A stretch of 64,000 bases of DNA from Elusimicrobia bacterium RIFOXYA2_FULL_39_19 (GCA_001800285.1 MGVC01000005.1:18476-82475), one strand, 5' to 3'. Positions 7,071 to 61,699 are shown, counted from the stretch's first letter. Notes: generated by a model from the letters alone, not told the origin. A program made the numbers and translations.

Positions 7071-8186
7071 TTATGGTGCAATATTATTTTCTGGCATGGG
7101 TAAACTTTCCAGCTTTTCTTCAGCCGGCACAACTTCCGGAACTGCTTGTATTTGTGGTTGCGTTTGGGTTTCCGGCGTTTTTTCTTCCTTTGCTTCTGGT
7201 ACAGTTGTCTGTACCAAATCTTTGCTTTTATTATATTTAAAAGGCATAGTCAGCGAAAGCCTGTAAGTATTTCCTAAATATCCGTACGGAGAAAAAGAGC
7301 AGTCCACATTTCCATAAGCACTGTTTATCCCAAACCCTGCAGACAACCCGCTGTCTGCCTGGTTGCGCCCGTTAAAACCAAGCCTTAGTTTTAGAATATG
7401 CAGTAAAGTATATTCAGCACCCATATTGATTATTAGCGGAACATCTTTTGAAAAGGTTGTATCAAAAGCAAAAAGCAGGTTTTGTTCAGGCAGAGTGTAT
7501 GCCGCGCCCAGTTTAAAATTTAACGGCAACTCTTCCTGCGTGCTGTAGAATTTTGCCCTTGTGCCAAGGTTTTGCAATACAGCTCCTGACTGAAAAACCT
7601 CATTGAATTTATACAAACATCCAATATCAATTGCTATTGCCTGTGTTTTTACAAAATCAATTCTTTCGTTTATATATTTCACGCTTAACCCGGCAGACAG
7701 CTTATCATTTAGTTGTTTTCCGCTGCCTAATGTCACCGCCATATCCTGTAAAAGATACTCACTCAGGCCATAGCCATTTCTATTTGAAATAGTAGTCCTT
7801 TGAATTGTGCCCCAGTCAACAATATTTATACTGCCGCCAAAACCAGTATTGGACACAAAGGCAAAATACCGCTGATTTATTTTCTGCAGCCAGAAAGTGT
7901 GCATAAAGTTTACTTCACTTCTTTTTATAACAGCCAAGCCGGCAGGATTATAGTACAAAGCATTAAAATCATCCGCTACGGCTGTAAAGGCCCCGCCCAT
8001 ACCTGCAGGCCTTATGCCTGTATCCAGCCTTAAAAAACCAAAAGGCGTAGTACCCGCACCTTCAGCAGACAAACGGATAGGCGCAGATAAAACACAGAAT
8101 ATACCGGCACAGAAAATCCAGAGCAGAACTCTGCTGTGTTTTCCTTTTAGAAATGAAAGTGTATTTTTTATAATTACCAGTTTCAT
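7071..8186 (-). CDS. PorV/PorQ (LptO)-family outer-membrane beta-barrel, T9SS cargo-shuttle-like
   Basis: Signal peptide, then GAGTTPFGFLRLDTGIRPAGMGGAFTAVADDFNALYYNPAGLA, a family-defining N-terminal motif of PorV/PorQ/UPF0164 barrels. Alternating beta-strand pattern with aromatic C-terminal region. Start ATG overlaps the giant gene's stop (ATGA at 8183-8186). Confidence 0.55.
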   Translation of the reverse strand: MKLVIIKNTLSFLKGKHSRVLLWIFCAGIFCVLSAPIRLSAEGAGTTPFGFLRLDTGIRPAGMGGAFTAVADDFNALYYNPAGLAVIKRSEVNFMHTFWLQKINQRYFAFVSNTGFGGSINIVDWGTIQRTTISNRNGYGLSEYLLQDMAVTLGSGKQLNDKLSAGLSVKYINERIDFVKTQAIAIDIGCLYKFNEVFQSGAVLQNLGTRAKFYSTQEELPLNFKLGAAYTLPEQNLLFAFDTTFSKDVPLIINMGAEYTLLHILKLRLGFNGRNQADSGLSAGFGINSAYGNVDCSFSPYGYLGNTYRLSLTMPFKYNKSKDLVQTTVPEAKEEKTPETQTQPQIQAVPEVVPAEEKLESLPMPENNIAP

Positions 8187-20100: not shown

Positions 20101-20917
20101 GTGTAACTAAATTCGGATAAACCCTTATTTCAGAACTTGTACCGGTTGATAACCAGATATCGTTGCCATTATAATTAAGAGCTTCTGTTGGATATGCTTT
20201 TACATAATGCGTTGCATAACCTGTCAGACCTGCCATTTCTGCATTAAAAACAGTTATGGTTGTTATACTTGAACCATTAATCAAACAAACATAATTTGTT
20301 TTTGATCCATATTGATCGGTAGATTCAACATACACTATGGGGTTTGCGTCAGAAATAGTATTCCATTGTAAATCTGTGGCTTTTATTGTTATGGCAAATG
20401 GTTGGCCTGCAGTAAATCTTGAAATCGGTGTTCCTGATTTTCCAGTTGAAGAACCCGGATTTTGTGTTTCGCCGGGAACTAAAATAAGCAACTTTGATGG
20501 ATCGGAAAGCGGGTAGGCTGTTGTATTATTTGAAACACCTGAAAATAATTCCAAGGGTCCTGAAGAGACCCAGATTCTAAAATAGTATAACTTATCGCTT
20601 TGAAGGCCTGTTATTACGTAATTCTGTCTGTTCCCGGAATTAACAGAACCTGTTGATAATACCAGATTTCCGCTTGTGCCCGTACTCCAGGCAATACTTT
20701 CAAAAGTTGATTTTTGAATTTCATACCTGCTCCCAACGGGTATAGTAAATGGGCCTGGATAGGTCCAAATTAAACGGACCTCATAAGAGTTCTGACCGGT
20801 AACAGCCGAAAGATCAGTTACCGCTAAAGATTGAGCAAATATGTTTTGAATACTTATAACAAGTATAAGAATACAAAACATAATTCTGATATTTATCACT
20901 TTATTCTTAAACATCAT
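8183..20917 (-). CDS. Giant (4244 aa) secreted repeat protein with T9SS C-terminal sorting domain (adhesin/surface-layer-like)
   Basis: Single uninterrupted 12.7-kb ORF. N-terminal signal peptide MMFKNKVINIRIMFCILILVISIQNIFAQS. Roughly 8 tandem ~110-aa repeats containing L-x-I-L-x-PGE-T...GKTG...QTAG-x-F-x-VTV-x-A-x-D-x-(W/Y)-N. Later modules with recurring [YF][FY]I[TA]YD(I/V)S motif. C-terminus VYPNPY...KIYIYTVSGELVFDS...GTFNWDVKNNNGSELASGGYLAVIVSSTGERKVFKLGIIK matches the Por_Secre_tail/T9SS CTD pattern. Ser/Thr/Gly/Asn/Tyr-rich. Confidence 0.85.
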   Translation of the reverse strand: MMFKNKVINIRIMFCILILVISIQNIFAQSLAVTDLSAVTGQNSYEVRLIWTYPGPFTIPVGSRYEIQKSTFESIAWSTGTSGNLVLSTGSVNSGNRQNYVITGLQSDKLYYFRIWVSSGPLELFSGVSNNTTAYPLSDPSKLLILVPGETQNPGSSTGKSGTPISRFTAGQPFAITIKATDLQWNTISDANPIVYVESTDQYGSKTNYVCLINGSSITTITVFNAEMAGLTGYATHYVKAYPTEALNYNGNDIWLSTGTSSEIRVYPNLVTRYHVILPNEVPAPGKPPYGENVTQQPIGDGTGGKNYSVSFQTAGVVFPVTVRVTDNYYNLCSTAVMGGVSVTVTDPYCSYSRSQGLTMGQNVWNNVMMNTASTWTVRATGSLGTYDSNIVNIIPGSAKRLRILAPGELPDAGNISTRGRMSNNYPTSHKAGESFNVTVDACDDYYNSVTTTGINVSIITDDLYDTHPSTKTLFSGTTTFGITLVTKKNTIITATTDYCSNYKYDYTQSIAITTNVPYRIQILVPGETHVDGKVTGSQPGKTEASNPTAQVAGVGFKTTVLCLDQCYNQTDENPTLTLMSDGADGDPNDPQVTGRSIWVSNGQYILDDSEKWVFSTSSNTGWRIRMSAFSWVEGEGYPGIMVNSQPSSKVPVVSNTASKLLVLLPGQNFDMNSPYGKTGSPSQQTAGAPFDVTVAITDSNFNIVSGAEGTIVLYTPTDPYNVEPAQITITGTDPGYKTASFTTGLKRAATYHYAVAEELYGTYTKYPNSAPDYTVSTFTVLPGTPNHLQIILPGETPAWGLNVSTANGKTGSPVTQTAGTVFEVTVNLVDNYYNTYNKGIFPSLPGITMPEVTVETNDPYDANSSTSPLGDISASNTFQIQLKTAATWHMLWTKDVDGSDPRYITDVSSRQFTVNPSSPAFLLVVVPGETHVPGKWNIAPYGRTDTQPTVHTAGDAFNIDVVLTDIWYNRIMSGVDMPSCTVTTWDYQDSEPTIQCLAFGSRAFSVRPLTASSSWTCVSVDWSTAAVKYTSKESSQIRIWPDAAYYMQGTSYIDPVRGSTWAYAGSDYNVRINVKDRYHNICSTGSTRYTGEVQFLAEIAPTDFDNSLQNPEPLPGSGGEHYVFTDADAGSHLFTIQLKKAGTRWINWRQSTDSLIDANRSGYSNRPVIEVRPGDPSKFAFAIPSPWTDPIYVKAGISGGVPNRQQVKAFIADSYENQVSSSNISAVLSVVDVFGSSGTIKDASGNVITSTTTDSNGEVGGLGKELYYEVSTTGGHYAKVQVSTAAGATITGKSVNIMTTGGDLYRFQFVTTPSDIEASAGNIKSTVFTFEKRDYWNNPTGETNIVSLSIGTQLKTDSPSVLNSQKKYWNKTTDTMLSMYDVAIPIWSAAVWPVPAANSQASFRYSDMYASWPAGEDGSQGTATAALPARPSIGKWTASVEYGIYVGSTTFNVNPGAITQVGFDVIPSTTLPLLAGIVYNNQNSLQVLEIETQDTYGNPKAVNVDTTMNLQSDSGAGNSLRIDYLHRLTFESEVDTIATTEYGRNYSFSLTSSPWMHTSTASISAGQYATQFWYADTKASKTYPPYNIAASTMPHVKASSGSWETPGSGQYVPITASPIKKLAIISSHQILAAGTTSSAFLLQTQDKFSNPSPVITGEEVMSIFDLNSTGTGNVRFASPNITSGWVAKPAVDIVTLNIGDDTTSFYMIDTNLGNFQITAQNPAKTDWAVAVQTYSVVAGNPHHFVFITESRRLIAGTTIAYTGSGNLGSVVSTYSVQGYNPFSSAVLPVPLSSYSNRVQTVTVITIQLRDQSDNVTISSDATSIVYTCTNSTSARAGENPLKNLMLSADWPSICEGGFLPGIIPPGSSEHSIYFFDTKAGTSTLRAEGTCGSIQLVSATQNQYITPAPARFFTIHHSYPLTNPLPVNSNGTVTVKARDRFGNVASGDSTNGQYYKGIIKFAHTGSTTAVTLRAMPGSATYYAYTESDSGVWQGLQVINQMQESLKISATHYASPVTQALDYPADGVVYGWTNDSTRVETAHSDANLVTSGIKVTPILDPENLLRGSNYLSRVISKKVYQGDGDIVENFQPFGMAGLTMVTLPVEANLTEKLEQIKVEKFGNTPSSSISKMSLYYDASGNYYFDPELVSGGQPTDTKLCDAEYDAGTDAWYFRNLSVKPEVSVNTLPKTYFIAVRIATSATTGTYFGLRLQSYQSIQTSGTIGVSQANFEIVTTTWAVEKSPPKVYAQLTDIAAYYQLEGTTQPITYSYMQQGESDIGMLRVAFSAPMFQGAISEIKVGRTGTGQDYDIVGVKIYMDGKDSSPNDGRIDAGSNPNGALEPGGDDALTNWVPFTDRSAQCMLSTPQLIDCTSRYFFITYKIENSATPGYTHGAQINGITLLEGAMQSYASIESTKVVVTATVDELNVYNVNKQETSVSSVNFTVTGVVTQGDANITVMKLTMATVQRTGLWGGLKLDRSIYRNATSGVPEGTLSLPTDVDKIQLWYDSNNDGMFEVTDSMVVDQNPQFSLMEFPVSELAESINESASVIEVADIGVFFPPFCSVPKAPGKLIIDDNGDPSKLEIVTYTGVDEDNNLFTGVVRGQDKTTAKSHTSGAIVSGPARLDIVGDVSGVQEIRQTPKNYFITFDYSPVCTVDASLKLGVEIPSTGYFTINSPDYMGNVQAQVGLRSPRNNQWIGTEWAATGWTESYVSQVKEYPDDVLVKPTDYIYTQYLVQGSVDNVMAQFTLETDLSEALWYAIRIYSTGTASYDGGAVQEEVPVVKVWYDANNDRMLNKSPVTPYFYAGTDYDVLVGSGTFSNAGDALATLIRFNSSKVQEIITAARAGVAKSQRYFITYDISETALTTNPRTGDPKNLGVRLTAESFPTDEDNLVQTEDDFISEPDNLDDIGLPWKSTLKTIASSPRTIFVKSAPIFSDDDPKETGTLSTYEVPRLSGNLSAGADVLYLFSNDSLGRPTPTLAIPASGYAVIESEIIKYTGKTANSITGITRGVLGSFAASHSSGVVFGVQVTQGVKNFAVEKLDLWADGFQVEMGTITITRTTPSYLLFGADSDLLNIKVYRDDNGNSRLDRFASPEYRGIVTADTLVGSGVYDNSRGRLYLNDPAINRGYILVTTTPTAYFITYDVSPSAKFSHPLISWQNEIIGAEITGEDKIGVNHPSEEMRHRVSTYVPIGLGEIPAFPIKTANMPIVATVDTVYITPSSELMSTVERYAENVPVIQLSMKTNRNTALWESIKVNLTGTGVDADVSKIKIWKVITSTSEYSVFESTVMINSQPCGLITYGSDTFTEKAATLLLKTEDNYYDARTITATLQTYYLTYDISQFAQISKTVGASILDKTYFTVQVPDGVEFLWPTAPFITQTAEIKEVQVAVSATVSDSAYYVHFASGAFQSQSNVEMMRLKLRTDKSNCNWDAIQVERTGTGGPLDQTKPEGRNSDVKYIKIFRDANYNNILDADDQCISEAETKISSLCSDGVYYNYISIYTPLPFDLIVESTITLTGTFPTGQQQLLVKAGDEIMRYSLAGTTITPTGPKPFLRIVERGKYGTVRKQLNSGDLIKKVDMFDLSNDLSKTKMIYLTNIQKLNPSNQTYFIAYDMGDNAVAGNTIGLKIPDSGWIKLRLPHDVSPLLVLETNTGVQLGNSTSFDYCKTSLLPVTPIGLIVKSENYAPVYTKYGSKNVPLMLLRLKTNTNHALLTNITLKQTGTVETSLIPGKGQGDFSCLSIWKEATSAAFPYGDGKFDATTDVFISSIPHSTGANPNMNFVSGMASLSIESTGLYISTAEVKLYIVGDVGYTDLSMNSTENDYTGIRLEEFSGLTIVPQTMVSDKNNTFPYKSSEFRITNISNYVDLPKVEITAPKEGEKISGNRITLTSEITSGESSDIRYVYFQYRKASEDEWHNIYSTGSLFTNPDATYPYNYFWDVSNESDFLQGNYQLRCVAYDKTGNYDNNPETVNVVIDRISPDMEEKIQNGVPEKTQKIYNNVENSIKLADINKKHFTEIIIPEGALSGSFDLVKVAINPLSIPSSDRKYKSAGMFRSIELASGQKTLLKNVTIIIAYADEDNDGIIDDTDMREENIKILYYDESSRIWKKDSETTVDKINNTASIQVGHFSLFGIFAAASNNLDNVLVYPNPYVPYDGADDNGIPYSQGNSQSGIVFENLTEAVKIYIYTVSGELVFDSYIESSGTFNWDVKNNNGSELASGGYLAVIVSSTGERKVFKLGIIK

Positions 20918-21166: not shown

Positions 21167-21238
21167 TTGAGTTTACGACACTGTAACCTTACTGCGGTTT
21201 TTGGCGGCCTGGCGGTCATTGGACATTCCTCTTTTTTA

Positions 21239-21330
21239 GGCGTCTGCGCTTCAACTCCCTAGAACCGTTGGAGTCAGGCGTCCTTTAGACCCATAGCTTT
21301 GCGCCCGTCGGTTTCCCGGCGTTTGCTTTT
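21239..21330 (-). promoter_or_regulatory. Candidate c-di-GMP-I (GEMM) riboswitch aptamer upstream of giant T9SS protein gene
   Basis: Minus-strand AAGCAAAC-GCCGG-GAAA-CCGAC-GGGCGCAAAGCT-ATGGGTCTAAAGG... aligns with Vc2 GEMM core GGGCAAAC-CAUUC-GAAA-GAGUGG-GACGCAAAGCC (GCAAAC, 5-bp P-stem with GAAA tetraloop, then CGCAAAGC junction). Tetraloop-receptor-like TATGG/CTAAAGG follows. A -35 TTGACA lies just upstream and a terminator hairpin ~70 nt downstream. Confidence 0.4.
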
Positions 21331-21514
21331 ATCAATTTTTGTCAGTTTTGGTTTTGTAGAGCCAAGGTAATTTGTGCTTTTTGTCACACCCTGATATGTA
21401 TATAGTATGGAAAGATAGTAAAGTCAAGGCTTATTTACATAAACTTTACCGATGATTACTGCGGATTTGGGGTTTTAGGATTTGAGGTGACTAAAATTTC
21501 TGCTATTTGGTGTG

Positions 21515-28042: not shown

Positions 28043-29257
28043 TTATTCCGTAATACCCATTTTCTTTTTCAGTTCCCGGGTTTTTTCCTGGCTGAGTTTT
28101 ATTAAATCACTGCCGCCTAATATTTTCTTATTGGTGTTTTTATCAATTACAACGCATCTTTCTGTACAGCAATAGCACGGGTCTACCGCTCCTAAGGTGA
28201 TAGCGGCGTCAGAAATAGTTCCCTTGATTGCGGTAATTTCATTTGTTGGCACATTTACATAAGAAGGGGCGCGGATTTTATGCCTTACCGGCCTGTTGGA
28301 ACCGTCTGAACGCACAAAGTGGAACACTTCCCCTCTGGGCGCTTCGTGCCGGCCTATGCCTTCACCTGCAGGAATGTTTTTTATTTTAAGATCAAAATTG
28401 CCTTCCGGCTCTTTTTTCAGGCCGTTTAAACAACCGCGTATTATTTTCACAGATTCGTACATCTCTAAAACACGTACTACAATTTTATCAAAGATATCAC
28501 CGTTAACGGCAGTAATAACTTTCCAATCTACCATACCGTAAGCGGCATATGGATTATCCCTGCGGATATCAATATCTACGCCGCTTGCTCTTGCTAGCGG
28601 GCCGACAGCGCAGAAATCTATAGCTTCTTTTTTTGTAAGCGGACAGATGCCTTTGGCTCTGGCTTGAATTACCGGGTCATCCATGACAGCGCCCTTGAAA
28701 AGGTCTATATAAGGAAGCAGGCCATCAAGCATTTTTTCCATTCTGGGAATATCTTCATTCAAAATATCTAAACGGACCCCACCGATTTTAAACATTGAAT
28801 AATGCTGGCGGTTACCGGTAATGTACTCCATAACATCTAATAACGGCTCTCTGGCTTTCCAGACCCACATCCATACAGTATTGTATCCTATAAAATGCCC
28901 CGCAAGTCCCAGCCAAAGCAAATGCGAGTGCAGTCTTTCAAGTTCGCCAACTATGGAACGGATATATTTGGTTCTGTCGGTCACTTCTATGCCTGCAAGA
29001 TCTTCTACGGCATTTACATAAGCAAACGGGTGTGAAGTGGAACAAATACCGCAGATTCTTTCAACAGTGAAAGCTACCTGGTCAAAGTGTTTGCTTTCGG
29101 AAATTTTTTCTATGCCACGGTGGTTATAACCGATTTCTATATCCAGTTTTTCCACTTTTTCGCCGTTTACAAACAGCTTGAAAAATTCAGGCTCTTCCTG
29201 AAGCGGATGATACGGCCCTATCGGTATAACAGTTTGTTTTTTCTTTTCTTCTTCCAT
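28043..29257 (-). CDS. Group 4 [NiFe] hydrogenase large (catalytic) subunit (NuoD/HycE/MbhL-like) with intact Ni-Fe ligands
   Basis: N-terminal RICGICSTSH (L1 RxCGxCxxxH) and C-terminal DPCYCCTER (L2 DPCxxCxxR) both present; 404 aa. Confidence 0.85.
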   Translation of the reverse strand: MEEEKKKQTVIPIGPYHPLQEEPEFFKLFVNGEKVEKLDIEIGYNHRGIEKISESKHFDQVAFTVERICGICSTSHPFAYVNAVEDLAGIEVTDRTKYIRSIVGELERLHSHLLWLGLAGHFIGYNTVWMWVWKAREPLLDVMEYITGNRQHYSMFKIGGVRLDILNEDIPRMEKMLDGLLPYIDLFKGAVMDDPVIQARAKGICPLTKKEAIDFCAVGPLARASGVDIDIRRDNPYAAYGMVDWKVITAVNGDIFDKIVVRVLEMYESVKIIRGCLNGLKKEPEGNFDLKIKNIPAGEGIGRHEAPRGEVFHFVRSDGSNRPVRHKIRAPSYVNVPTNEITAIKGTISDAAITLGAVDPCYCCTERCVVIDKNTNKKILGGSDLIKLSQEKTRELKKKMGITE

Positions 29258-29329
29258 TTGCTTTCCCTTGCCCCGTCTGCCTTTGCAGGACGGATAATTC
29301 TAATGCTCTAAGCTCTAATTTCTAATGCT

Positions 29330-33623: not shown

Positions 33624-34343
33624 TTAGGCCTCGGTTTTTTCTATTTCTTTGGCAAGAATTACAGCTTCAGCTACGGCACGAAGGGTTTTACGGGCATCCA
33701 TACTTTTTTTCTGCAGCAGCCTGTAGGCATCTTCTTCAGAATGACCATACTGTTTCATAATGATACCTTTGGCTTTTTCTACAAGCTTGCGGGTTTCAAG
33801 CTCTTCTTTTAAAATATTTGATGTGACCAGCAGGTTCGCATTTTCTATAACTACGGCCGCCTGGTTTGCAACAGTTGTTAAGACAGCTATTTCTGAATCA
33901 GTAAACTTATGAAAAAATGAAGTATAACAATTTAAAGCTCCAATGGGTTTACCTTTTACGTCCAGCGGCACGCACAGCAAGGACTTTAAACCCAGTTTTT
34001 TTGCCATATCCTTAAATTTAAACTCCGGTTCATTTAAAACATCTAAAACCTGAATAGGTTTATTTTCCTTGAGTACTTTACCTGCAATGCCTTCCCCTAT
34101 TTTTAAAGAACCCTTTTTTATATATTCCTCACTCATGCTTTGGGTAGCTTTAATGTCCAGGGCTCCCTGCTTTACATCAAATAACATTATTGAACAGATC
34201 TCTGATTTCATTACCTGTGCGGTTACGGTGACAATAAGCTTTAAAATATCTTCCAAGTAAAGGTCTGATGTGATGGCTTTGCTGATTTTTGAGACAGCGT
34301 TAATGAAATCATTGTGGTCAGTCTTGTTTCTTGTTTTTTTCAT
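33624..34343 (-). CDS. GAF-domain plus ANTAR-domain RNA-binding antiterminator regulator
   Basis: N-terminal GAF-like region. C-terminal AKGIIMKQYGHSEEDAYRLLQKKSMDARKTLRAVAEAV matches ANTAR consensus (AKGiLM...EeAy..Lr..Sm..n.kL..vAe.v). Confidence 0.7.
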   Translation of the reverse strand: MKKTRNKTDHNDFINAVSKISKAITSDLYLEDILKLIVTVTAQVMKSEICSIMLFDVKQGALDIKATQSMSEEYIKKGSLKIGEGIAGKVLKENKPIQVLDVLNEPEFKFKDMAKKLGLKSLLCVPLDVKGKPIGALNCYTSFFHKFTDSEIAVLTTVANQAAVVIENANLLVTSNILKEELETRKLVEKAKGIIMKQYGHSEEDAYRLLQKKSMDARKTLRAVAEAVILAKEIEKTEA

Positions 34344-51481: not shown

Positions 51482-54477
<2,996 letters not shown>

Positions 54478-54502
54478 TCCCGGTAATTTTCTAAACAAAA
54501 AA

Positions 54503-54595
54503 AGTGATTAGGTGATTACGTGTTTGGTTAAATGTTTAAATTTATTTCATCCTTCACTAACCACCTAATAACTAATCACATAACCACTTAATCAC
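54503..54595. repeat. Intergenic palindromic repeat element, copy A (GTGATTAGGTGATTACGTG ... CACATAACCACTTAATCAC)
   Basis: Inverted half-sites GTGATTA / TAATCAC, ending ~30 nt before the livK-like ATG. Confidence 0.6.
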
Positions 54596-54627
54596 CGCTA
54601 TGTATAAATCATTTGTAGGAGACACCG

Positions 54628-55740
54628 ATGTATAAATTAATCTCAGTTTTGTTTTTAGGCTTAATACTTATCGCAGGCTGTGCCAAACAGGATAAAAATG
54701 TAATTAAAGTTGCCCTTGCAGGGCCCTTAACCGGAGATATTGCCGCTATGGGGCAGGGCATGAAAAAAGCCATAGAGATTGCCGTAGAAGAAGCAAACCA
54801 GTCAGGCGTTTTGAAAGATAAAAAATTTCAGGCAGTTATTTTTGATGACCGCGCAGACCCCAAAGAAGCGGTAAGCGTAGCAAACCAGATAGTTTCAGAC
54901 CCGCAGATTTACGGCATTGTAGGCCACTTAAACAGCGGCTGTTCCATACCTGCCAGCCAGATTTATGCAAAATACAATCTTGTTATCATCACACCCGCTT
55001 CCACAAACCCCAAACTTACACAACAGGGACTAAAAAATGTTTTCAGAGTCTGCACCACGGATGATGTGCAGGGAAGCGCCGCCGCCAATTATGTTATTGA
55101 TAAATTAAAAATAAAAAATGTTTCCATAATACACGACAAAACCCCTTACGGCCAGGGCATAGCAGAAAACTTTAAAGCAACCTTTGAAAACCGCAAAGAC
55201 AAAGTGTTAAGTTATGACGGCATAAATACGGGAGATAAAGATTTCAAAGCCCTGCTTACAAAAATAAAAACCTTTAAACCCCAGCTGATTTATTTCGGCG
55301 GTGTTTACAGCGAATATGGCCTGCTTTCCAAGCAGGCAAAAGAACTGGGGCTTAACGCCGTATTTTTCAGCGATGACGGATCTTCATCACCGGAATATAT
55401 TAAAATTGCCGGCAGTGCTTCAGAAGGCAACTATGTTTCCATGATAGGCATTCCTCCGGCTAAACTGAAAAAAGCAAAGGCATTTTTAGATACCTTTGCT
55501 TCCAAATACCCGGGCACTGACTTACAGCCGTATGACACCTACACCTATGAAACCTCAAAAATACTTATTGACGCTATTGTAAAAACAAACATGGACAAAT
55601 CAAAAATTGCCGATTATCTTGCAACGGTTAAATTTGACGGAATTCTAGGCATAACTTCTTTTGATGCAAACGGCGATACGCTGAACAAATCTATCAGTAT
55701 TTACAAAGCAAAAAACGGCAAGTTTGAATACTGCGAATAA
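54628..55740 (+). CDS. Branched-chain amino acid ABC transporter substrate-binding lipoprotein (LivJ/LivK-like)
   Basis: Lipoprotein signal (LILIAGC), type I periplasmic binding fold motifs; 370 aa. Confidence 0.8.
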   Translation: MYKLISVLFLGLILIAGCAKQDKNVIKVALAGPLTGDIAAMGQGMKKAIEIAVEEANQSGVLKDKKFQAVIFDDRADPKEAVSVANQIVSDPQIYGIVGHLNSGCSIPASQIYAKYNLVIITPASTNPKLTQQGLKNVFRVCTTDDVQGSAAANYVIDKLKIKNVSIIHDKTPYGQGIAENFKATFENRKDKVLSYDGINTGDKDFKALLTKIKTFKPQLIYFGGVYSEYGLLSKQAKELGLNAVFFSDDGSSSPEYIKIAGSASEGNYVSMIGIPPAKLKKAKAFLDTFASKYPGTDLQPYDTYTYETSKILIDAIVKTNMDKSKIADYLATVKFDGILGITSFDANGDTLNKSISIYKAKNGKFEYCE

Positions 55741-55845
55741 ATTTCCCGATTACATCGAAAATAATCAGACAATAAATTTGTTTGATAATTGATAAATGCT
55801 TTTTCTTATCAACTTATCATCATCCCAACATATCAACCGTCTCTC

Positions 55846-56736
55846 ATGTTCATCCAGCAACTAATTAACGGACTTACACTCGGCAGCATTTATGCACTGA
55901 TTGCTCTCGGCTACACCATGGTTTACGGCGTTTTATTAATGATAAATTTTGCTCACAGCGAAATTTTTATGATAGGCGCCTACATCGGCCTTTGGGCTTT
56001 AACCGCCATTCCTGCCTTTGCCTCCTTTACTATTACCGGTTTCATAATAACTTTTCTGGTTGTACTGCTTTTTTCAGGCCTGCTGGCTGTTTCGGTAGAA
56101 AAATTAGCATACAAACCGCTCCGCCAGGCCCCGCGCCTTTCCCCCTTAATAAGCGCTATAGGCGTTTCCATAGTTTTACAGAACCTCATTATGCTTTTTG
56201 TCAGCAACCAGTCAATGCCTCTTCCGGAATTTAAAACCACCCGTTATCAGATATTCAGTGCTGAAGTAGATACCCTGCAGATATTTATTTTTTGTTTTTC
56301 TATTGCACTTATGCTTCTGCTGAACCTTTTTATCAGTAAAACAAAGTTCGGCAAAGCTATGCGCGCCACAGCACACAGCCACAGCGTTTCCCAGCTGATG
56401 GGTATAAATTCAAGCTCTATGATAGCTATGGTATTTTTTATCGGCGGCGCTTTAGGCGGCATTGCCGGCATGTTAAACGGCATGTACTACGGAAGTATAA
56501 AATATAATATGGGTTTTTTCCCTGGTATAAAAGCATTTACCGCGGCGGTGCTGGGAGGTATAGGAAATGTTAAAGGCGCTATGCTGGGTGGTTTTCTGTT
56601 AGGCCTGATTGAAACCTTTTCCGCCGGCTACATATCATCCCAGAACAAAGATGTAATCACTTTCTGCGTACTTATACTCATGCTTGTCTTTAAACCTACC
56701 GGAATTTTAGGTGAAAATGTAACTGAAAAAGTATGA
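55846..56736 (+). CDS. livH: Branched-chain amino acid ABC transporter permease LivH
   Basis: MFIQQLINGLTLGSIYALIALGYTMVYGVLLMINFAHSE aligns with LivH N-terminus. The track ORF extends to 55789 as an alternative start. Confidence 0.8.
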   Translation: MFIQQLINGLTLGSIYALIALGYTMVYGVLLMINFAHSEIFMIGAYIGLWALTAIPAFASFTITGFIITFLVVLLFSGLLAVSVEKLAYKPLRQAPRLSPLISAIGVSIVLQNLIMLFVSNQSMPLPEFKTTRYQIFSAEVDTLQIFIFCFSIALMLLLNLFISKTKFGKAMRATAHSHSVSQLMGINSSSMIAMVFFIGGALGGIAGMLNGMYYGSIKYNMGFFPGIKAFTAAVLGGIGNVKGAMLGGFLLGLIETFSAGYISSQNKDVITFCVLILMLVFKPTGILGENVTEKV

Positions 56737-57713
56737 AATTTAAAAACATTGCTATTATTACAGCCTTTATCACCGCGATTGTACTGCCCTTAATCATGCA
56801 GGCGTCAGCCAATTATTACGCCATACACGTGCTTGGGTTGCTGGGTATCTACGCTATATTGTGTGTCGGGCTTAATATTACTATAGGTTATACCGGCTTG
56901 CTGGATTTAGGGTTTATGGCATTCTATGCTATAGGCGCTTATATCGGAATAATTCTTAGTGCGAAGGGCATTTCATTCTGGTATATTATTCCTATCAGTC
57001 TGTTTATCGGCGGTACTTTTAGATATTTACTTGGCGCACCGGTATTACGTTTACGCGGTGATTATCTTGCCATAGTAACACTGGCGTTTGGTGAAATTAC
57101 CCGCCTACTATTAAACAACCTGGATTTTTTAACTAACGGGCCTAAAGGCCTGCCCCGCGTAGGTGAAACGGTTTTACCTATCAGTATTTTTTCCTTTACT
57201 TTAAGAAACGATATTCATTTCTACTACCTTATCGTATTTTTTCTGGCGCTTGCAATTATTGTCAGCTACCGGCTTGAGCACTCGCGCCTTGGCAGGGCGT
57301 TTGTAGCTATACGGGAAGATGAAACAGCCGCAGAACTTTCCGGCATAAACGTATCAAACACAAAACTGCTGGCTTTTGTAATAAGCGGTATGTTCGGCTC
57401 TCTGGCAGGAACCATTTACGCGCACTGGATAGGTTTTATTTCACCGGAATCTTTTACTTTCTGGGAATCCATATTTCTGGTGTGCATGCTGGTTATCGGC
57501 GGAATGGGCAGTATTTCTGGCGCCATACTGGGCGCCTTTATACTTGCCGGCATACCGGAATTTCTGCGTCCGGTGCTGGGCTCGGGTTTTATAGATTACA
57601 GAATGCTTATTTTCGGGCTGCTGCTTGTAGTTGTAATTATTTTCAGGCCCCAGGGTTTGCTTCCTTCAAAAAGAAGAAACCTGGAGTTGCGTATGAATAA
57701 AAACAGTGAATAA
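56733..57713 (+). CDS. livM: Branched-chain amino acid ABC transporter permease LivM
   Basis: Polytopic permease with LGLLGIYAILCVGLNITIGYTGLLDLGFMAFYAIGAY. ATGA overlap with livH. Confidence 0.8.
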   Translation: MKFKNIAIITAFITAIVLPLIMQASANYYAIHVLGLLGIYAILCVGLNITIGYTGLLDLGFMAFYAIGAYIGIILSAKGISFWYIIPISLFIGGTFRYLLGAPVLRLRGDYLAIVTLAFGEITRLLLNNLDFLTNGPKGLPRVGETVLPISIFSFTLRNDIHFYYLIVFFLALAIIVSYRLEHSRLGRAFVAIREDETAAELSGINVSNTKLLAFVISGMFGSLAGTIYAHWIGFISPESFTFWESIFLVCMLVIGGMGSISGAILGAFILAGIPEFLRPVLGSGFIDYRMLIFGLLLVVVIIFRPQGLLPSKRRNLELRMNKNSE

Positions 57714-57727
57714 ATTATTTCAAACAC

Positions 57728-57786
57728 GGTGATTAGTGGTTACGTGATTAGTAACATCTTTGCTAATCACTTAAACACATAACCAC
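57728..57786. repeat. Intergenic palindromic repeat element, copy B
   Basis: GGTGATTAGTGGTTACGTGATTAGTAACATCTTTGCTAATCACTTAAACACATAACCAC; ends 30 nt before the livG ATG. Confidence 0.6.
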
Positions 57787-57816
57787 TTTATTAGAAATAA
57801 CCAGACTAATAACCTT

Positions 57817-58575
57817 ATGTTATTATCCATTAATTCAGTAAACAAACATTTTGGCGGATTAAGTGCACTTGCAGACATGAACATGTCTGCTGCCGATAAA
57901 GAAATTGTCGGACTTATCGGCCCCAACGGCGCTGGTAAAACTACGCTATTTAACGTAATTACCGGCGTATATCCTATTGATAGCGGTGAAATAGTATTTA
58001 AAAACAAAAATATTCACAACCATAAACCGCATAAAATAGTAAAAAACGGCATAGCCAGAACTTTCCAGAACATCCGCCTGTTTTCAAACATGACGGCCCT
58101 GGAAAATGTAATGGCTGGCAGGCACTGCCGCACCAAATCAGAACTTTTCCCGGCATTACTGCGCACAAAAGCGTTTTCAAAAGAAGAAAAAGAAATACAG
58201 GACTCTTCAAAAGAAATACTGGATTTCGTAGGGCTTCTTAAATCCGGCAATGAGCTGGCAAAAAACCTTGCTTATGGCCAGCAGAGGAAACTGGAAATTG
58301 CTCGCGCCCTGGCCACAAACCCGTCATTGCTTCTTTTAGATGAACCCACGGCGGGAATGAACCACAGCGAATGCAACGGTTTGATAGAACTTATATACAA
58401 AATCCGTGAAAAAAATACGGCTATCATAGTCATTGAACACCAGATGAACGTAATAATGAACATTTCTGATAAAATAGTTGTAATGGATTACGGTGAAAAA
58501 ATAGCAGAAGGCAGCCCCGCACAAATTCAGAAAAATCCGAAAGTTATAGAAGCGTATCTTGGCAGGAATAACTAA
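57817..58575 (+). CDS. livG: Branched-chain amino acid ABC transporter ATP-binding protein LivG
   Basis: GPNGAGKTTLFNVITG Walker A, LLLDEPTAGMN Walker B/signature region. Confidence 0.85.
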   Translation: MLLSINSVNKHFGGLSALADMNMSAADKEIVGLIGPNGAGKTTLFNVITGVYPIDSGEIVFKNKNIHNHKPHKIVKNGIARTFQNIRLFSNMTALENVMAGRHCRTKSELFPALLRTKAFSKEEKEIQDSSKEILDFVGLLKSGNELAKNLAYGQQRKLEIARALATNPSLLLLDEPTAGMNHSECNGLIELIYKIREKNTAIIVIEHQMNVIMNISDKIVVMDYGEKIAEGSPAQIQKNPKVIEAYLGRNN

Positions 58576-58578
58576 AAA

Positions 58579-58640
58579 GGTGGATAAGTGGTTGGTAACA
58601 CCTTAACTAACCACATAGTGACTAAACACTTAATCACTAT
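58579..58640. repeat. Intergenic repeat element, copy C (AACACCTTAACTAACCACATAGTGACTAAACACTTAATCACTAT)
   Basis: Near-identical to the 59476-59520 copy; ends 21 nt before the livF ATG. Confidence 0.65.
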
Positions 58641-58661
58641 CTTAGGCATCAAAAAACAATT

Positions 58662-59384
58662 ATGGGAAATTATCTTTTAGAGATTCGGGACATTTATACT
58701 TACTACGATAAAATAGCCGCGCTTAAAGGCGTGTCTCTTAACCTGCAAAAGGGTGAGATAGTAGCCATTATCGGTGCCAACGGTGCCGGAAAAACCACGC
58801 TAATAAACACTATTTCAGGTTTAATTCATCCGGCACAGGGCCGGATATTATTTGAAAACAATGTAATCAGCGGTATGCCTGCATACAAAATTGCCCGTAA
58901 AGGCATAGTGCAAATACCGGAAGGGCGCAAGCTTTTTCCTAAACTAACTGTGCTTGAAAATATGGAGTTGGGCGCTTTTTCGCAGAATAATAAAAAAGAA
59001 ATAAATGAGAACATTGAAAAGATGTATGCTTTGTTTCCCATTTTAAAACAAAGAAGCAAACAGTATGCAGGCACCATGAGCGGCGGAGAACAGCAAATGC
59101 TGGCTCTGGCGCGCGGGCTTATGGCAAAACCGAAAGTCCTGCTAATTGATGAGCCGTCAATGGGACTGGCGCCCGTACTAGTAGAAAAAACTTTTCAGAT
59201 AATAAAAGAAATTAATGCGCAGGGCATAGCAATTCTGCTGGTTGAGCAAAATGCAAAAAAGTCCCTGGAAATTGCCAGCCGTGCCTATGTAATTGAAACA
59301 GGAAAGATAATAATGACTGATAACGCACATAAACTGCTTGAAAATGATATAATCAAAAAAGCTTACTTGGGTGAAATGCTTTAA
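58662..59384 (+). CDS. livF: Branched-chain amino acid ABC transporter ATP-binding protein LivF
   Basis: GANGAGKTTLINTISG; LSGGEQQMLALARGL; LLIDEPSMGLAP. Confidence 0.85.
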   Translation: MGNYLLEIRDIYTYYDKIAALKGVSLNLQKGEIVAIIGANGAGKTTLINTISGLIHPAQGRILFENNVISGMPAYKIARKGIVQIPEGRKLFPKLTVLENMELGAFSQNNKKEINENIEKMYALFPILKQRSKQYAGTMSGGEQQMLALARGLMAKPKVLLIDEPSMGLAPVLVEKTFQIIKEINAQGIAILLVEQNAKKSLEIASRAYVIETGKIIMTDNAHKLLENDIIKKAYLGEML

Positions 59385-59397
59385 TTGGATAAAAACC

Positions 59398-59520
59398 GTG
59401 ATTAGGTGATTGCGGGTAGCACCCTTGTATCATCTAATAAAAGAAAAAATAAGGGTTACGTGGTTAGGTGTTTGGCAACACCTTAACTAACCACCTAATG
59501 ACTAAACACTTAATCACTAT
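59398..59520. repeat. Intergenic repeat element, copy D (GTGATTAGGTGATTGCG ... GGTTAGGTGTTTGGCAACACCTTAACTAACCACCTAATGACTAAACACTTAATCACTAT)
   Basis: Shares a 45-nt core with copy C and GTGATTAGGTGATT with copy A; ends 18 nt before the nfeD ATG. Confidence 0.65.
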
Positions 59521-59538
59521 TCCAGAAATGAGGTTGAA

Positions 59539-60876
59539 ATGAAAAAAATAACGTTTTTTGTTTGTTTTATCTTTAACTACTTACTACTTACCACTTCCGG
59601 ATTTTTGGTTTCCCAGCTTCACGCAGAAACCTACCTGATGGAAATTGACGGAATTATTAACCCTGTAGTAGCGGATTACATATCTGACGGGATGAAACAA
59701 ACCAAAGAAGGTGATACTGTAATAATCAGGATGAACACTCCCGGCGGTCTGATGGATTCCATGCAGCAGATAATAAAATCTATGCTTAATTCCCCTAATC
59801 CGGTAATAGTGTGGGTTGGCCCTCCCGGTTGCAGAGCGGCTTCAGCCGGTGTATTTATTACTATGGCAAGTGATATTGCCTGCATGGCTCCCGAAACAAA
59901 CATAGGGGCAGCACACCCCGTACAAATGGGCGGAGGCGGCACACCTGCGGCGCCCGGAGCAGAAAACAAAAAGAACCCTTCGCAGGATAAAATAATGGAA
60001 GGCAAAATTACTAATGACGCGGCAGCCTATATGCGCTCCATTGCCAGTGAAAAAAACCGCAACTGGCGCTGGGCAGAGTTATCCGTTACAAAAAGTTTGT
60101 CCATCACATCCCGCGAAGCTCTGGACAAAAAAGTAATTGAATATATTTTTTCTAATATGGATGATCTGCGCGCAAAACTTAACGGGAAAAAAATTAAAAA
60201 ACTTAAAAAAGAATTTAAAATAGATACAAAGAGTGAAATTATAAATATTCAAATGAAACCTTTTAAAAAATTCCTGAATATGATAGCACACCCGAATATT
60301 GCTTTCATTTTTCTCACTTTGGGTATCTACGGCCTTATTTATGAGTTTTCCTCACCTGGCATAGGGTTGGGCGCAATAGTAGGCGGCAGCTGCCTTATAC
60401 TTGCATTTTTTTCCATGCAGTTATTACCGGTAAACACAGCAGGACTGCTTATGCTGATACTGGGGCTTATACTTATGGCCATTGATGTGTTTAACCCTAC
60501 CGTTATTTTAACTATTGGCGGGATTGCTTCCTTTATAATGGGCGCATTAATGCTTTTTGATTTTCCCGGAAATTTTATTTCTGTTTCTTTGAGTCTTATC
60601 TTTACCGTTGCCCTTGTTACGGTACTGCTTTTTATATTTGTGCTGAGATCAATTGTAAAAGTACGCAAAACAAAAGTAACTACCGGCAAAGAAGGCCTGA
60701 TAGGTGAAAAAGGCATTGCTAAATCTGTTTTTAGCGGCGTAAATACCCGCGGTATGGTTTTTGTACAGGGAGAGCTGTGGAGTGCAGAGCTGACCGAACC
60801 CTCAGAAATAAAAGAGGGCGATACTGTAGAAGTAGTAAATGTAGAAAGCAATTTGTTAAAAATCAAGAAACCGTAA
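59539..60876 (+). CDS. NfeD-family membrane-bound ClpP-class serine protease
   Basis: N-terminal ClpP-like region (MNTPGGLMDSMQQI...GPPGCRAASAGVFI), central TM helices, C-terminal OB-like NfeD domain (GEKGIAKS...GELWSAE). Confidence 0.8.
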   Translation: MKKITFFVCFIFNYLLLTTSGFLVSQLHAETYLMEIDGIINPVVADYISDGMKQTKEGDTVIIRMNTPGGLMDSMQQIIKSMLNSPNPVIVWVGPPGCRAASAGVFITMASDIACMAPETNIGAAHPVQMGGGGTPAAPGAENKKNPSQDKIMEGKITNDAAAYMRSIASEKNRNWRWAELSVTKSLSITSREALDKKVIEYIFSNMDDLRAKLNGKKIKKLKKEFKIDTKSEIINIQMKPFKKFLNMIAHPNIAFIFLTLGIYGLIYEFSSPGIGLGAIVGGSCLILAFFSMQLLPVNTAGLLMLILGLILMAIDVFNPTVILTIGGIASFIMGALMLFDFPGNFISVSLSLIFTVALVTVLLFIFVLRSIVKVRKTKVTTGKEGLIGEKGIAKSVFSGVNTRGMVFVQGELWSAELTEPSEIKEGDTVEVVNVESNLLKIKKP

Positions 60877-60952
60877 TACGGAAGTCGTCAGTGGTAAGTA
60901 ATTACTATTTACCACTTACAATTTACCATTCACGGCATTCAGGAGGTAAGAC

Positions 60953-61699
60953 ATGTTTTCAGGACCAAGTATTACATTAGTAATCATCGGCGTAATTATA
61001 CTGATGAATGCAGTACGCGTAGTAAATGAGTATGAAAGAGGTGTAATTTTCAGATTGGGCAGGTTAATTGGCGCAAAAGGCCCGGGTTTGTTTTTTCTTA
61101 TTCCTATTGTAGACAGAATGATAAAAATCAGCCTAAGAACAACCACTATGGACATCCCCACCCAGGAAGTTATTACCAAAGATAACGTGCCGGCTAAAGT
61201 AAATGCTGTTTGTTATTTCAGGGTTGTTGACCCTAATAAAGCAGTTGTAAGCATTGAAAATTATATTTATGGTACAAATCAAATTGCACAAACAACACTA
61301 AGAAGTGTTCTAGGCCAGGTAGAACTGGATACACTTTTAGGGGAAAGAGAACAGATTAACCTTAAACTTCAGCAGATTATTGATCAGCAGACTGAACCTT
61401 GGGGCATAAAGGTAAGCGTAGTTGAAGTTAAAGATGTGCAGATACCTGAACAAATGCAGAGAGCCATAGCCCGCCAGGCAGAAGCTGAAAGAGAAAGGCG
61501 TGCAAAAGTTATCAATGCTGAAGGCGAATTTCAGGCATCCACCAAACTGGCGGAAGCAGCGGAAATTATCGGCAAAAATCCGGCGGCTATCCAGCTAAGA
61601 TTTTTACAGACAGTTACTGAAGTTGCCTCAGAAAAAAGCACAACCCTGGTACTTCCTATACCAATAGACCTTTTAAAAGCTTTCACTGAAAAAAGATAA
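60953..61699 (+). CDS. SPFH/band-7 (stomatin-like) protein
   Basis: Single N-terminal TM helix, then [15 protein letters not shown]...[11 protein letters not shown], the stomatin signature. Classic nfeD-stomatin pairing. Confidence 0.85.

What the first reader, a model, noticed from the sequence alone, without database searches (positions are those of the whole stretch)
54503..59520. Family of palindromic intergenic elements (GTGATTAGGTG / TAATCAC) placed 18-32 nt upstream of successive start codons in the liv-nfeD region
Every intergenic gap in the liv operon carries related 60-120-nt elements:
- pyrG|livK-like gap: 54503-54595;
- livM|livG gap: 57728-57786;
- livG|livF gap: 58579-58640;
- livF|nfeD gap: 59398-59520.

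The elements are built from tandem GTGATTA(G/C)GTG units and inverted TAATCAC / AACCAC units. Copies C and D share a 45-nt near-identical core (AACACCTTAACTAACCAC.TA.TGACTAAACACTTAATCACTAT). Each ends at a near-constant distance from the next ATG. A distinct hairpin (AGTGGTAAGTAATTACTATTTACCACT) sits in the nfeD|stomatin gap. These could be REP/MITE-like elements, mRNA-stabilising or RNase-processing hairpins, or operator sites for a dimeric regulator recognising GTGATTA-N-TAATCAC.
Basis: seen in the sequence. Interest (0 to 1): 0.5.

Follow-up and report, generated by a model that had tools for sequence, protein, structure and literature searches.

The report
Dispersed sense-oriented intergenic repeat family
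The four look-alike sequences between the liv transporter genes are real. They are copies of a repeat family that also sits between unrelated housekeeping genes in the same uncultivated Elusimicrobia genome, so they are REP-like intergenic elements and not a switch specific to the liv operon.

Summary
Four gaps (pyrG|livK, livM|livG, livG|livF, livF|nfeD) hold homologous 59-123-nt elements. Each has a G/T-rich 5' arm of GTGnTTA units, a spacer, and an almost G-free A/C-rich 3' half of TAAnCAC units. Nothing else in the 64-kb window matches them.

The window comes from Elusimicrobia bacterium RIFOXYA2_FULL_39_19. A family-specific pattern found four more copies on another 132-kb contig of the same genome: lspA|lgt, aminotransferase|nadE, iscS-like|arsP and rph|rdgB. 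All eight copies lie between co-directional genes and are in sense orientation. Each begins 0-26 nt after the upstream stop codon and ends 14-32 nt before the next ATG.

Syntenic relatives have compact or overlapping junctions at the same places and no copies, so the elements are lineage-specific insertions.

The A/C-rich half is well conserved (82% mean identity). The G/T arm is poorly conserved (58%). Hairpin strength varies (z = -4.6 to +0.3) and there is no covariation.

Verdict: a new REP-like dispersed intergenic repeat family that is transcribed within operons. A liv-specific operator role is refuted. The function, whether an RNA hairpin/spacer effect or merely tolerated selfish DNA, remains inferred. 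Interest is modest.

The parts
54504..54595 (+). Copy A (pyrG|livK gap). G/T arm GTGATTAGGTGATTACGTGTTTGG at 54504-54527, an extended AT-rich loop, and A/C arm CTAACCAC..TTAATCAC at 54557-54595. It starts 26 nt after the pyrG stop codon and ends 32 nt before the livK ATG (54628).
   Evidence: (leave-one-out E = 6e-10, + strand 35 bits against 17 on the - strand). Fold -22 kcal/mol; z = -1.7 for the gap.
57729..57786 (+). Copy B (livM|livG gap). G/T arm 57729-57751, loop, A/C arm CTAATCACTTAAACACATAACCAC at 57763-57786. It starts 15 nt after the stop codon and ends 30 nt before the livG ATG (57817).
   Evidence: (E = 2.5e-9). Gap fold -25.3 kcal/mol, z = -4.6.
58580..58640 (+). Copy C (livG|livF gap). 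Degenerate G/T arm GTGGATAAGTGGTTGG at 58580-58595, spacer TAACACCTTAA, A/C half 58607-58640. It starts 4 nt after the stop codon. The last TAATCAC unit ends 24 nt before the livF ATG (58662).
   Evidence: 61 nt, 90% identical to D; E = 4.5e-15. z = -2.9.
59398..59520 (+). Copy D (livF|nfeD gap), composite. Outer G/T arm 59398-59412. Inserted module CGGGTAGCACCC plus its own hairpin 59413-59459. Core G/T arm 59460-59475. A/C half 59487-59520. It starts 13 nt after the stop codon, and the last unit ends 21 nt before the nfeD ATG (59539).
   Evidence: E = 9e-18; the same GGGTAGYAYCC module occurs in copy G on the other contig. Fold -41.4 kcal/mol, z = -3.6.
55781..55819 (+). Related-architecture hairpin, not a family member, in the livK|livH gap: (TTGATAA)2 .. 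TTATCAAC-TTATCA.
   Evidence: TRF period 8 at 55807-55837; -8.1 kcal/mol. Not matched by the family profile.
60890..60916 (+). Separate hairpin AGTGGTAAGTAATTACTATTTACCACT in the nfeD|stomatin gap (GTGGTAA/TTACCAC units), followed by TTTACCA-like repeats up to 60935.
   Evidence: I3, D6; z = -3.2. Not matched by the family profile.

Best explanation
The four elements are copies of a lineage-specific, dispersed intergenic repeat family of Elusimicrobia bacterium RIFOXYA2_FULL_39_19.

Anatomy. A copy is about 60-125 nt and is built from degenerate 7-8-nt units.
- A variable G/T-rich 5' arm, (GTGnTTAn)2-3.
- A spacer, GYAAMA-YCTTnn.
- A conserved, almost G-free A/C-rich 3' half: CTAAYCAC-N7-CTAAHCAC-W-TAAYCAC-T.
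- Some copies also carry a nested GGGTAGYAYCC hairpin module.

Shown.
- The family inserts at junctions between co-directional genes that are compact or overlapping in relatives.
- It is always in the sense orientation.
- It fills the gap from 0-26 nt after the upstream stop codon to 14-32 nt before the next start codon.
- It is not specific to the liv genes.

Inferred.
- Because no promoters or terminators lie in these gaps, the elements are transcribed inside polycistronic mRNAs.
- They act, if at all, at the RNA level, in the way REP/BIME and other intercistronic stem-loops do.
- The G/U arm folds back on the A/C arm (-13 to -41 kcal/mol). This would separate formerly coupled cistrons, and it could block 3'-5' decay or hinder terminating ribosomes.
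- The four copies in the liv operon probably reflect local spread. C and D are 90% identical, and copies are clumped on both contigs.
For: Family and significance.

Same genome, other loci.
- LivK (P0001) and NadE (P0138) are both 100% identical to proteins named for RIFOXYA2_FULL_39_19. Both contigs come from the same ENA sample.
- The pattern scan and nhmmer find copies E-H at E = 3e-18 to 2e-12.
- The flanking genes are lspA|lgt, aminotransferase|nadE, Aminotran_5|ArsP and RNase PH|Ham1.

Polarity. In all 8 copies the sense strand scores 10-37 bits above the antisense strand. Copy G is on the minus strand with minus-strand genes, only 3 kb from copy F on the plus strand, so orientation follows transcription rather than replication.

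Insertion.
- The syntenic relative L411 has rph|rdgB overlapping by 4 nt and aminotransferase|nadE separated by 21 nt, against 127 and 94 nt here.
- Relatives' liv operons L222, L226 and L227 have junctions of -8 to +4 nt, against 86-154 nt here.
- There are no family hits in 108 kb of relatives' loci.

Transcription context: no promoter- or terminator-like sites in the gaps.

Folding.

Precedent. REPs are extragenic, transcribed, stabilise mRNA and can stall terminating ribosomes when they lie close to the stop codon (PMC12306157; PMC3733652).
Against: Hairpin conservation is weak.
- RNAalifold on the 8 copies gives no consensus structure.
- The four-copy pairing register pairs 80% of cells, but no better than column shuffles, and no pair has a compensatory change.
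- Copy H folds no better than shuffled sequence (z = +0.3) and copy G is weak (z = -1.6).
- Neither strand is consistently favoured in folding energy.

Only the A/C half is well conserved: 82% against 58% for the G/T arm. A pure stem-loop function does not predict this.

Copy number genome-wide is unknown. About 95 kb was sampled, and two of the loci were ascertained through the element itself.

The orientation statistic is small: 8 of 8, and fewer independent events if the liv copies arose by local duplication.

There are no expression data.
Confidence: 0.5

Rival explanations
1. Neutral or selfish DNA. The elements arise and spread by slippage of 7-8-nt units, template switching or gene conversion, or an unidentified transposase. 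They are merely tolerated in gene junctions. The sense-only orientation then reflects purging of the opposite orientation, not a function. The antisense orientation would place a long G/U-rich tract with SD-like AGGUG and GUG codons just ahead of start codons.
For: - Copies are absent from relatives' orthologous junctions.
- Architecture and hairpin strength vary.
- Copies are clumped: 4 in 5 kb, 3 in 6 kb, none in the other ~65 kb.
- A relative (L221) has sequence-unrelated 7-9-mer palindromes in its liv gaps, and L225 has a tandem 9-mer array.
- Arrays of permuted octamer units are as common as TAAnCAC arrays in viral contigs: 60 and 68 loci against 67.
- Short-unit repeats are known to be sporadic and species-specific (Mrazek 2007, as summarised in PMC4679880).
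Against: - The A/C half keeps 72-95% identity across copies in different contexts while the other arm decays. That is unexpected for drifting junk unless the copies are young.
- Orientation is sense in 8 of 8 copies.
- No transposase, terminal inverted repeats or target-site duplication were identified.
Confidence: 0.3
2. The functional unit is the single-stranded, G-free A/C-rich RNA segment, not the hairpin. It would be a landing platform just upstream of the ribosome-binding region for a trans-acting factor such as ribosomal protein S1 or a standby ribosome, Rho (a C-rich, G-poor rut-like site), an sRNA, or a global RNA-binding regulator. The G/U arm would be an optional masking partner. 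This would tie unrelated operons into one post-transcriptional regulon.
For: - The right half is 82% conserved and has 5 G in 305 nt, against 19% G in the genome. The left arm is 58% conserved.
- Strict sense orientation, with the end 14-32 nt before the start codon.
- Analogous proposal for TAACTGA repeats placed forward and next to start codons (PMC4679880).
- In other phyla, A/C-rich octamer arrays end within 16 nt of a sense start codon in 21 cases against 2 antisense. This count is biased by the ORF definition used.
Against: - No binding factor is known.
- Genes downstream of elements lack a Shine-Dalgarno sequence no more often than others: 3 of 8 have one, against 29 of 64 overall.
- The TAAnCAC unit is not over-represented relative to permuted units in viral contigs.
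- Six of eight copies do pair the A/C arm.
Confidence: 0.15
3. Operator sites for a dimeric DNA-binding regulator of branched-chain amino-acid transport that recognises GTGATTA-N-TAATCAC.
For: Inverted-repeat symmetry of the units. Paired arrays of tandem octamers in Geobacter metallireducens were proposed, without tests, as global-regulator or IHF/HU sites (PMC2700814).
Against: - Copies lie at lspA|lgt, aminotransferase|nadE, iscS-like|arsP and rph|rdgB.
- They are intercistronic, with no promoter nearby.
- They are absent from orthologous liv operons.
- Arm number and spacing vary.
- Orientation follows transcription, which a symmetric DNA site would not require.
Confidence: 0.03
4. Intrinsic terminators or attenuators between cistrons.
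For: Copies E and F have a U-run after the hairpin, and A-runs precede several copies.
Against: The terminator scan finds none in the four window gaps. The stems are AU/GU-rich with few G-C pairs, and copies A, C and D lack a U-tract. The downstream genes, livG and livF, are essential parts of the same transporter.
Confidence: 0.04

Closest known systems
REP/BIME-type repetitive extragenic palindromes (E. coli, Pseudomonas and others; GTAG- and CGTC-tagged superfamilies)
   Same: Multi-copy, extragenic, quasi-palindromic, species-specific, and lying between unidirectional genes including cistrons of ABC-transporter operons. Plausibly transcribed. Six of eight copies start within 15 nt of the stop codon (PMC12306157; PMC3733652).
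   Different: Longer (59-123 nt against 14-40). Built from tandem 7-8-nt units. No terminal GTAG or CGTC tag; only an internal GGGTAG module in copies D and G. One arm is much better conserved than the other. Orientation is strictly sense. A RAYT could not be looked for.
Paired inverted arrays of tandem octa- or heptanucleotides in Geobacter metallireducens (classes 1-3; Aklujkar 2009, PMC2700814)
   Same: Two oppositely oriented arrays of 3-5 tandem 7-9-nt units at variable spacing. Tens of copies. Species-specific. One class sits between proB and proA, which is an intercistronic position.
   Different: The unit sequences differ (GTTGCTYN, TCTCCGTS, MTYCTGA). They were interpreted, without tests, as DNA sites for IHF/HU-like global regulators. 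No polarity relative to transcription was reported.
TAACTGA heptamer direct repeats and long simple sequence repeats (MacGregor 2015, PMC4679880; Mrazek 2007 as cited there)
   Same: Short-unit intergenic arrays carrying stop codons, in forward orientation 1-43 nt upstream of start codons. Close relatives have shorter gaps without repeats. A post-transcriptional role has been proposed.
   Different: Those are perfect direct repeats with no predicted structure. Here the units are degenerate, the copies are homologous as whole ~75-nt elements including non-repeat spacer and tail, and most have an inverted partner arm.
Stem-loops of selective RNA processing and stabilisation operons
   Same: Intercistronic stem-loops within polycistronic transcripts that could set the stoichiometry of the cistrons (PMC8219983 abstract).
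   Different: Those are defined by function and free energy, not by being a repeat family. No expression data exist here.

Membership tests
REP (five criteria of PMC12306157) | Located in extragenic regions and transcribed with the flanking genes | tested here: inconclusive
   All 8 copies are extragenic and lie between co-directional genes with no promoter or terminator in the gaps. Transcription itself was not measured.
REP (five criteria of PMC12306157) | Palindromic: forms a stem-loop | tested here: inconclusive
   z = -4.6, -3.6, -2.9, -2.7, -2.6 and -1.7 for six copies, but -1.6 and +0.3 for copies G and H. No consensus structure or covariation.
REP (five criteria of PMC12306157) | Short (14-40 nt in E. 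coli) | tested here: not met
   Copies are 59-123 nt.
REP (five criteria of PMC12306157) | Common consensus motif and multiple copies per genome | tested here: met
   8 copies on two contigs of one MAG. The right half is 72-95% identical between copies. The total copy number is unknown.
GTAG/CGTC-tagged REP superfamilies and REPtrons (PMC3733652) | Unpaired GTAG or CGTC tag at one end of the palindrome | tested here: not met
   The ends are GTGA.../...TCAC(T). GTAG occurs only inside the nested GGGTAGYAYCC module of copies D and G.
GTAG/CGTC-tagged REP superfamilies and REPtrons (PMC3733652) | An associated RAYT (tyrosine transposase) gene in the genome | not testable with these tools
   Only about 95 kb of the MAG could be read. 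No Y1 transposase appears among the called genes there.
MITE | Equally conserved terminal inverted repeats, a target-site duplication, and a related autonomous IS | tested here: inconclusive
   The arms are unequally conserved, 58% against 82%. No obvious direct repeat flanks the copies by eye, though the boundaries are fuzzy. No IS was seen in the sampled DNA.
Long simple sequence repeats / STRR / TAACTGA-type arrays | Head-to-tail tandem copies of one 5-11-nt unit | tested here: not met
   TRF finds only 1.9-3.9 imperfect copies. The copies share non-repeat spacer and tail, so the repeated entity is the ~75-nt element.
Long simple sequence repeats / STRR / TAACTGA-type arrays | Forward orientation close upstream of start codons | tested here: met
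   8 of 8 copies are in sense orientation and end 14-32 nt before the ATG.
Rho-independent terminator | GC-rich stem followed by a U-tract | tested here: not met
   No terminator-like site lies in the four window gaps.
Any Rfam family | Covariance-model match | tested here: not met
   The gathering-threshold scan finds only a c-di-GMP-I riboswitch elsewhere in the window. The E-value scan of 54400-61000 gives only a chance mir-279 hit at E = 0.046.

The most novel reading that the evidence does not exclude
The conserved, G-free A/C-rich half, always in sense and 14-32 nt upstream of start codons, is an RNA landing site for a trans-acting factor (Rho, S1 or a standby ribosome, an sRNA, or an unknown RNA-binding regulator). 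The degenerate G/U arm is a built-in mask. On this reading the family wires unrelated operons (liv, nadE, lgt, rdgB, arsP) into one post-transcriptional regulon. Similar A/C-rich octamer arrays next to start codons in Bacteroidota and other phyla would be the same device evolved repeatedly.
Probability: 0.12. Interest if true: 0.6.

Novelty: new member of a known kind. Interest (0 to 1): 0.3.

Why it matters
The result removes a tempting but wrong reading, that this is a regulator-binding site dedicated to the liv operon. It documents a previously undescribed dispersed repeat family in an uncultivated Elusimicrobia lineage.

The family has two features that are cleaner here than in classical REPs.
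- Orientation is strictly sense and follows transcription rather than replication.
- Only one arm, the G-free A/C-rich one, is conserved.

If these features hold genome-wide, this family would be a good test case for whether such elements are selected at the RNA level. It also shows how compact, translationally coupled gene junctions are broken open by repeat insertion.

For annotation, the family profile can mask these elements and prevent false sRNA or operator calls.

Tried and rejected
1. Exact 14-mer GTGATTAGGTGATT in viral contigs. It returned only chance-level single hits and is uninformative.

2. Three-unit pattern TAANCAC x3 in GTDB genomes.
- I first read this as a possible cross-phylum superfamily.
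- Permuted-unit controls in viral contigs gave the same counts, 60 and 68 loci against 67.
- The recurrence is therefore best read as generic short-unit repeat formation plus selection by the pattern.
- The '21 against 2 next to a sense start codon' count is inflated, because ORFs were defined as starting after a stop codon and the arrays contain stop codons.

3. C/D 22-mer in JGI metagenomes: no hits.

4. Paralogues of the giant ORF as a way to reach other contigs of the genome. The full-length query timed out and the N-terminal fragment gave no same-genome hits.

5. RNA strand preference from G-U against A-C counts and from folding energies: no consistent difference.

6. Anti-SD mimicry (AUCACCU at unit junctions). 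Rejected, because the junction base is mostly T or A in these copies.

7. Replacement of the Shine-Dalgarno sequence by the element. Rejected: 3 of 8 downstream genes have one, against 45% overall.

8. A leader ORF through the A/C arm, coupled to the downstream start. The open frames are inconsistent across copies.

9. ANTAR targets. A GAF-ANTAR protein is encoded in the window, but I saw no paired hexaloop hairpins in the predicted folds.

10. blastn of copy D against plasmids and phages: no match.

11. Literature search for the explicit repeat sequences: none found.

Full report
**1. Observation**

- Gaps pyrG|livK, livM|livG, livG|livF and livF|nfeD hold elements A (54504-54595), B (57729-57786), C (58580-58640) and D (59398-59520).
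- Each has a G/T-rich 5' arm of GTGnTTA units and an A/C-rich 3' arm of TAAnCAC units.
- C and D share 61 nt at 90% identity, and A shares 38 nt at 82-87% with them.
- All four align as one family, including a non-repeat spacer (GYAACA-CCTTnA) and a short 3' tail.
- Clusters of three or more units number six in the window. Five lie in gaps A, B and D; C's degenerate units do not cluster. Markov shuffles give 1.7 on average.
- In leave-one-out nhmmer searches each omitted copy is recovered at E = 6e-10 to 9e-18. Apart from weaker reverse-strand matches to the same four copies, only D's own left extension scores below E = 0.7 elsewhere in the window.
- Six further kb upstream of the window hold no copy.

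Two corrections apply. livH and livM overlap. The livK|livH gap (livH starts at 55846) carries a different TTGATAA/TTATCAA hairpin. The nfeD|stomatin hairpin is real.

**2. Source organism**

- LivK is 100% identical to a protein of 'Elusimicrobia bacterium RIFOXYA2_FULL_39_19', a Rifle aquifer MAG.
- Other assemblies of the locus are identical at the nucleotide level across the 301-nt copy-A region I aligned, so they give no comparative signal there.
- The nearest LivK relatives are only 63-69% identical.

**3. The family is dispersed and not specific to liv**

- A scan of JGI metagenomes with a family-specific right-arm pattern (CTAACCAC-N7-CTAAHCAC-W-TAAYCAC, which is not 8-periodic and so misses generic arrays) gave four loci. 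Two of them lie on one 132-kb contig.
- The NadE protein of that contig is 100% identical to 'NAD+ synthase [Elusimicrobia bacterium RIFOXYA2_FULL_39_19]'. An ENA copy of the contig comes from the same sample as the window contig. It is therefore the same genome.
- nhmmer finds four copies there. Flanking genes were identified with Pfam.
  - E: between lspA and lgt.
  - F: between a class I aminotransferase and nadE.
  - G: between an Aminotran_5 (IscS-like) gene and an ArsP permease gene.
  - H: between rph and rdgB/Ham1.
- Copy G shares with window copy D a nested module, GGGTAGYAYCC plus a hairpin of different sequence.

The total copy number is still unknown.

**4. Common anatomy of the eight copies**

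- All lie between co-directional genes.
- In every copy the sense strand scores 10-37 bits above the antisense strand.
- Copy G is on the minus strand with minus-strand genes, 3 kb from copy F on the plus strand with plus-strand genes. Polarity therefore follows transcription, not replication.
- The left ends lie 0-26 nt from the upstream stop codon. In E the TGA stop is inside the first GTGATTA unit, and in G the TAG stop starts the arm.
- The right ends lie 14-32 nt before the next ATG.
- The right half is 82% identical on average (range 72-95%) and has 5 G in 305 nt, against 19% G in the genome. The left arm averages 58%.
- Copies are clumped: 4 in 5 kb and 3 in 6 kb, against none in about 65 kb.

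**5. The elements are insertions**

- A syntenic relative (L411, NadE 71% identical) keeps the gene order valS-rph-rdgB...aminotransferase-nadE. There rph and rdgB overlap by 4 nt and the aminotransferase|nadE gap is 21 nt. Here those gaps are 127 and 94 nt.
- The liv operons of three relatives (L222, L226, L227) have junctions of -8 to +4 nt, against 86-154 nt here.
- No family copy occurs in 108 kb of relatives' loci.
- Some other relatives carry sequence-unrelated short-unit elements in their liv gaps.
  - L221 has (GRCTGAAG)n..(CTTCAGCC)n and a near-perfect (ATAGGTC/GACCTAT) palindrome in two adjacent gaps.
  - L225 has a (CAGTCTGAC)4 array.
- Short-unit repeats filling liv junctions are therefore recurrent, but each lineage has its own.

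**6. Structure**

- Folds of the gaps give -13 to -41 kcal/mol.
- The z-scores are -4.6 (B), -3.6 (D), -2.9 (C), -2.7 (F), -2.6 (E), -1.7 (A), -1.6 (G) and +0.3 (H).
- Neither strand is consistently favoured.
- RNAalifold on four copies finds a 15-pair helix with no compensatory pair. On eight copies it finds no consensus structure.
- The four-copy register pairs 80% of cells in all eight copies, against 27-43% in slid registers. This is no better than column shuffles, so it reflects sequence conservation rather than covariation.
- There are no promoter- or terminator-like sites in the gaps and no Rfam family.

**7. Mechanism**

Shown: a lineage-specific, dispersed, polar repeat family that has expanded compact junctions between co-directional genes.

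Inferred: the copies are co-transcribed with their neighbours and act at the RNA level. The best-supported model is REP-like. An intercistronic stem-loop or spacer uncouples the cistrons, and it can protect upstream RNA or impede terminating ribosomes. Six of eight copies start within 15 nt of the stop codon, which is the configuration reported to stall ribosomes in E. coli (PMC12306157).

The asymmetric conservation and the weak hairpins in G and H keep two rivals alive.
- Tolerated selfish DNA with orientation-dependent purging.
- A single-stranded A/C-rich platform for a trans-acting factor.

A liv-specific operator and an intrinsic terminator are rejected. The evidence is in sections 3 and 6.

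**8. Cross-phylum context**

- A three-unit TAANCAC pattern hit more than 115 loci in GTDB genomes, many of them in Bacteroidota. About a third have an upstream G/T arm that forms long hairpins.
- Permuted-unit controls in viral contigs were equally frequent: 67 loci for the pattern against 60 and 68.
- I therefore treat these as convergent members of the general short-unit repeat phenomenon, not as homologues.
- That phenomenon has been described as long simple sequence repeats, TAACTGA repeats (PMC4679880) and the paired octamer arrays of Geobacter metallireducens (PMC2700814).

**9. Verdict**

This is a new member of a known kind, and interest is modest.

Noticed in passing
window 21200-21337 (-) and 8183-20917 (-): A c-di-GMP-I riboswitch (61 bits, E = 1.5e-9) lies upstream of a 4244-aa ORF that has no Pfam domain. 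Homologues of its N-terminal 900 aa are few (17) and mostly come from unnamed metagenome proteins; one is named Elusimicrobiota.
   Followed up: partly
window 33624-34343 (-): A GAF-ANTAR protein (an RNA-binding antiterminator domain) is encoded next to a radical-SAM/SPASM gene. I saw no ANTAR-type dual hexaloop hairpins in the predicted folds of the liv elements.
   Followed up: partly
window 29299-29329: A direct array of about four TCTAATGC-like 7-8-nt units sits in the 72-nt gap upstream of the minus-strand gene 28043-29257. It is another short-unit array in this genome and is unrelated to the family profile.
   Followed up: no
window 55781-55819: The livK|livH hairpin is built from TTGATAA units. 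This unit differs by one base from a rotation (CTGATAA) of the TAACTGA heptamer described in Beggiatoaceae, Cyanobacteria and Bacteroidetes.
   Followed up: no
L221 9178-11896 and 12980-14969: In a relative (GCA_017973795.1) three genes with CTD10, MC6/MC7 and DUF2326 domains, which look like a defence system, are inserted between livK and livH. Its livH|livM, livM|livG and livG|livF gaps carry unrelated 7-9-mer palindromes that occur nowhere else in the 19-kb locus.
   Followed up: partly
L411 7774-8035: A complete tRNA-like sequence is preceded about 180 nt upstream by a duplicate of its 5' half. It lies next to DUF2204/AbiEii genes that are absent from the syntenic region of the window's genome. 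This resembles the scar of an element integrated at a tRNA gene.
   Followed up: no
L409 16167-16794 and 17356-18266: Two unusually long gene-free stretches (628 and 910 nt) on the second contig of the same genome. They were not examined.
   Followed up: no
L016 7575-7670 and L031 5255-5345 (IMG/VR 3300045482): Two viral contigs carry (GGAGATTA)n..(CTAATCAC)n hairpins of -36 kcal/mol. Octamer-array hairpins therefore also occur in phage-like DNA.
   Followed up: no
L407 4860-5100 (JGI Ga0156443_102): An element from an unidentified organism (GC 37%) scores E = 3e-11 against the family profile. It has a TTTTACTAACCAC..TTAATCACTAC right arm and is followed by a strong intrinsic terminator. It may be a second host of a related family.
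   Followed up: partly
genome loci L104-L218: A/C-rich TAAnCAC arrays, mostly in Bacteroidota, often run right up to an ATG in sense orientation: 21 within 16 nt against 2 antisense. The count is biased by how ORF starts were defined, but it resembles the published TAACTGA pattern.
   Followed up: partly
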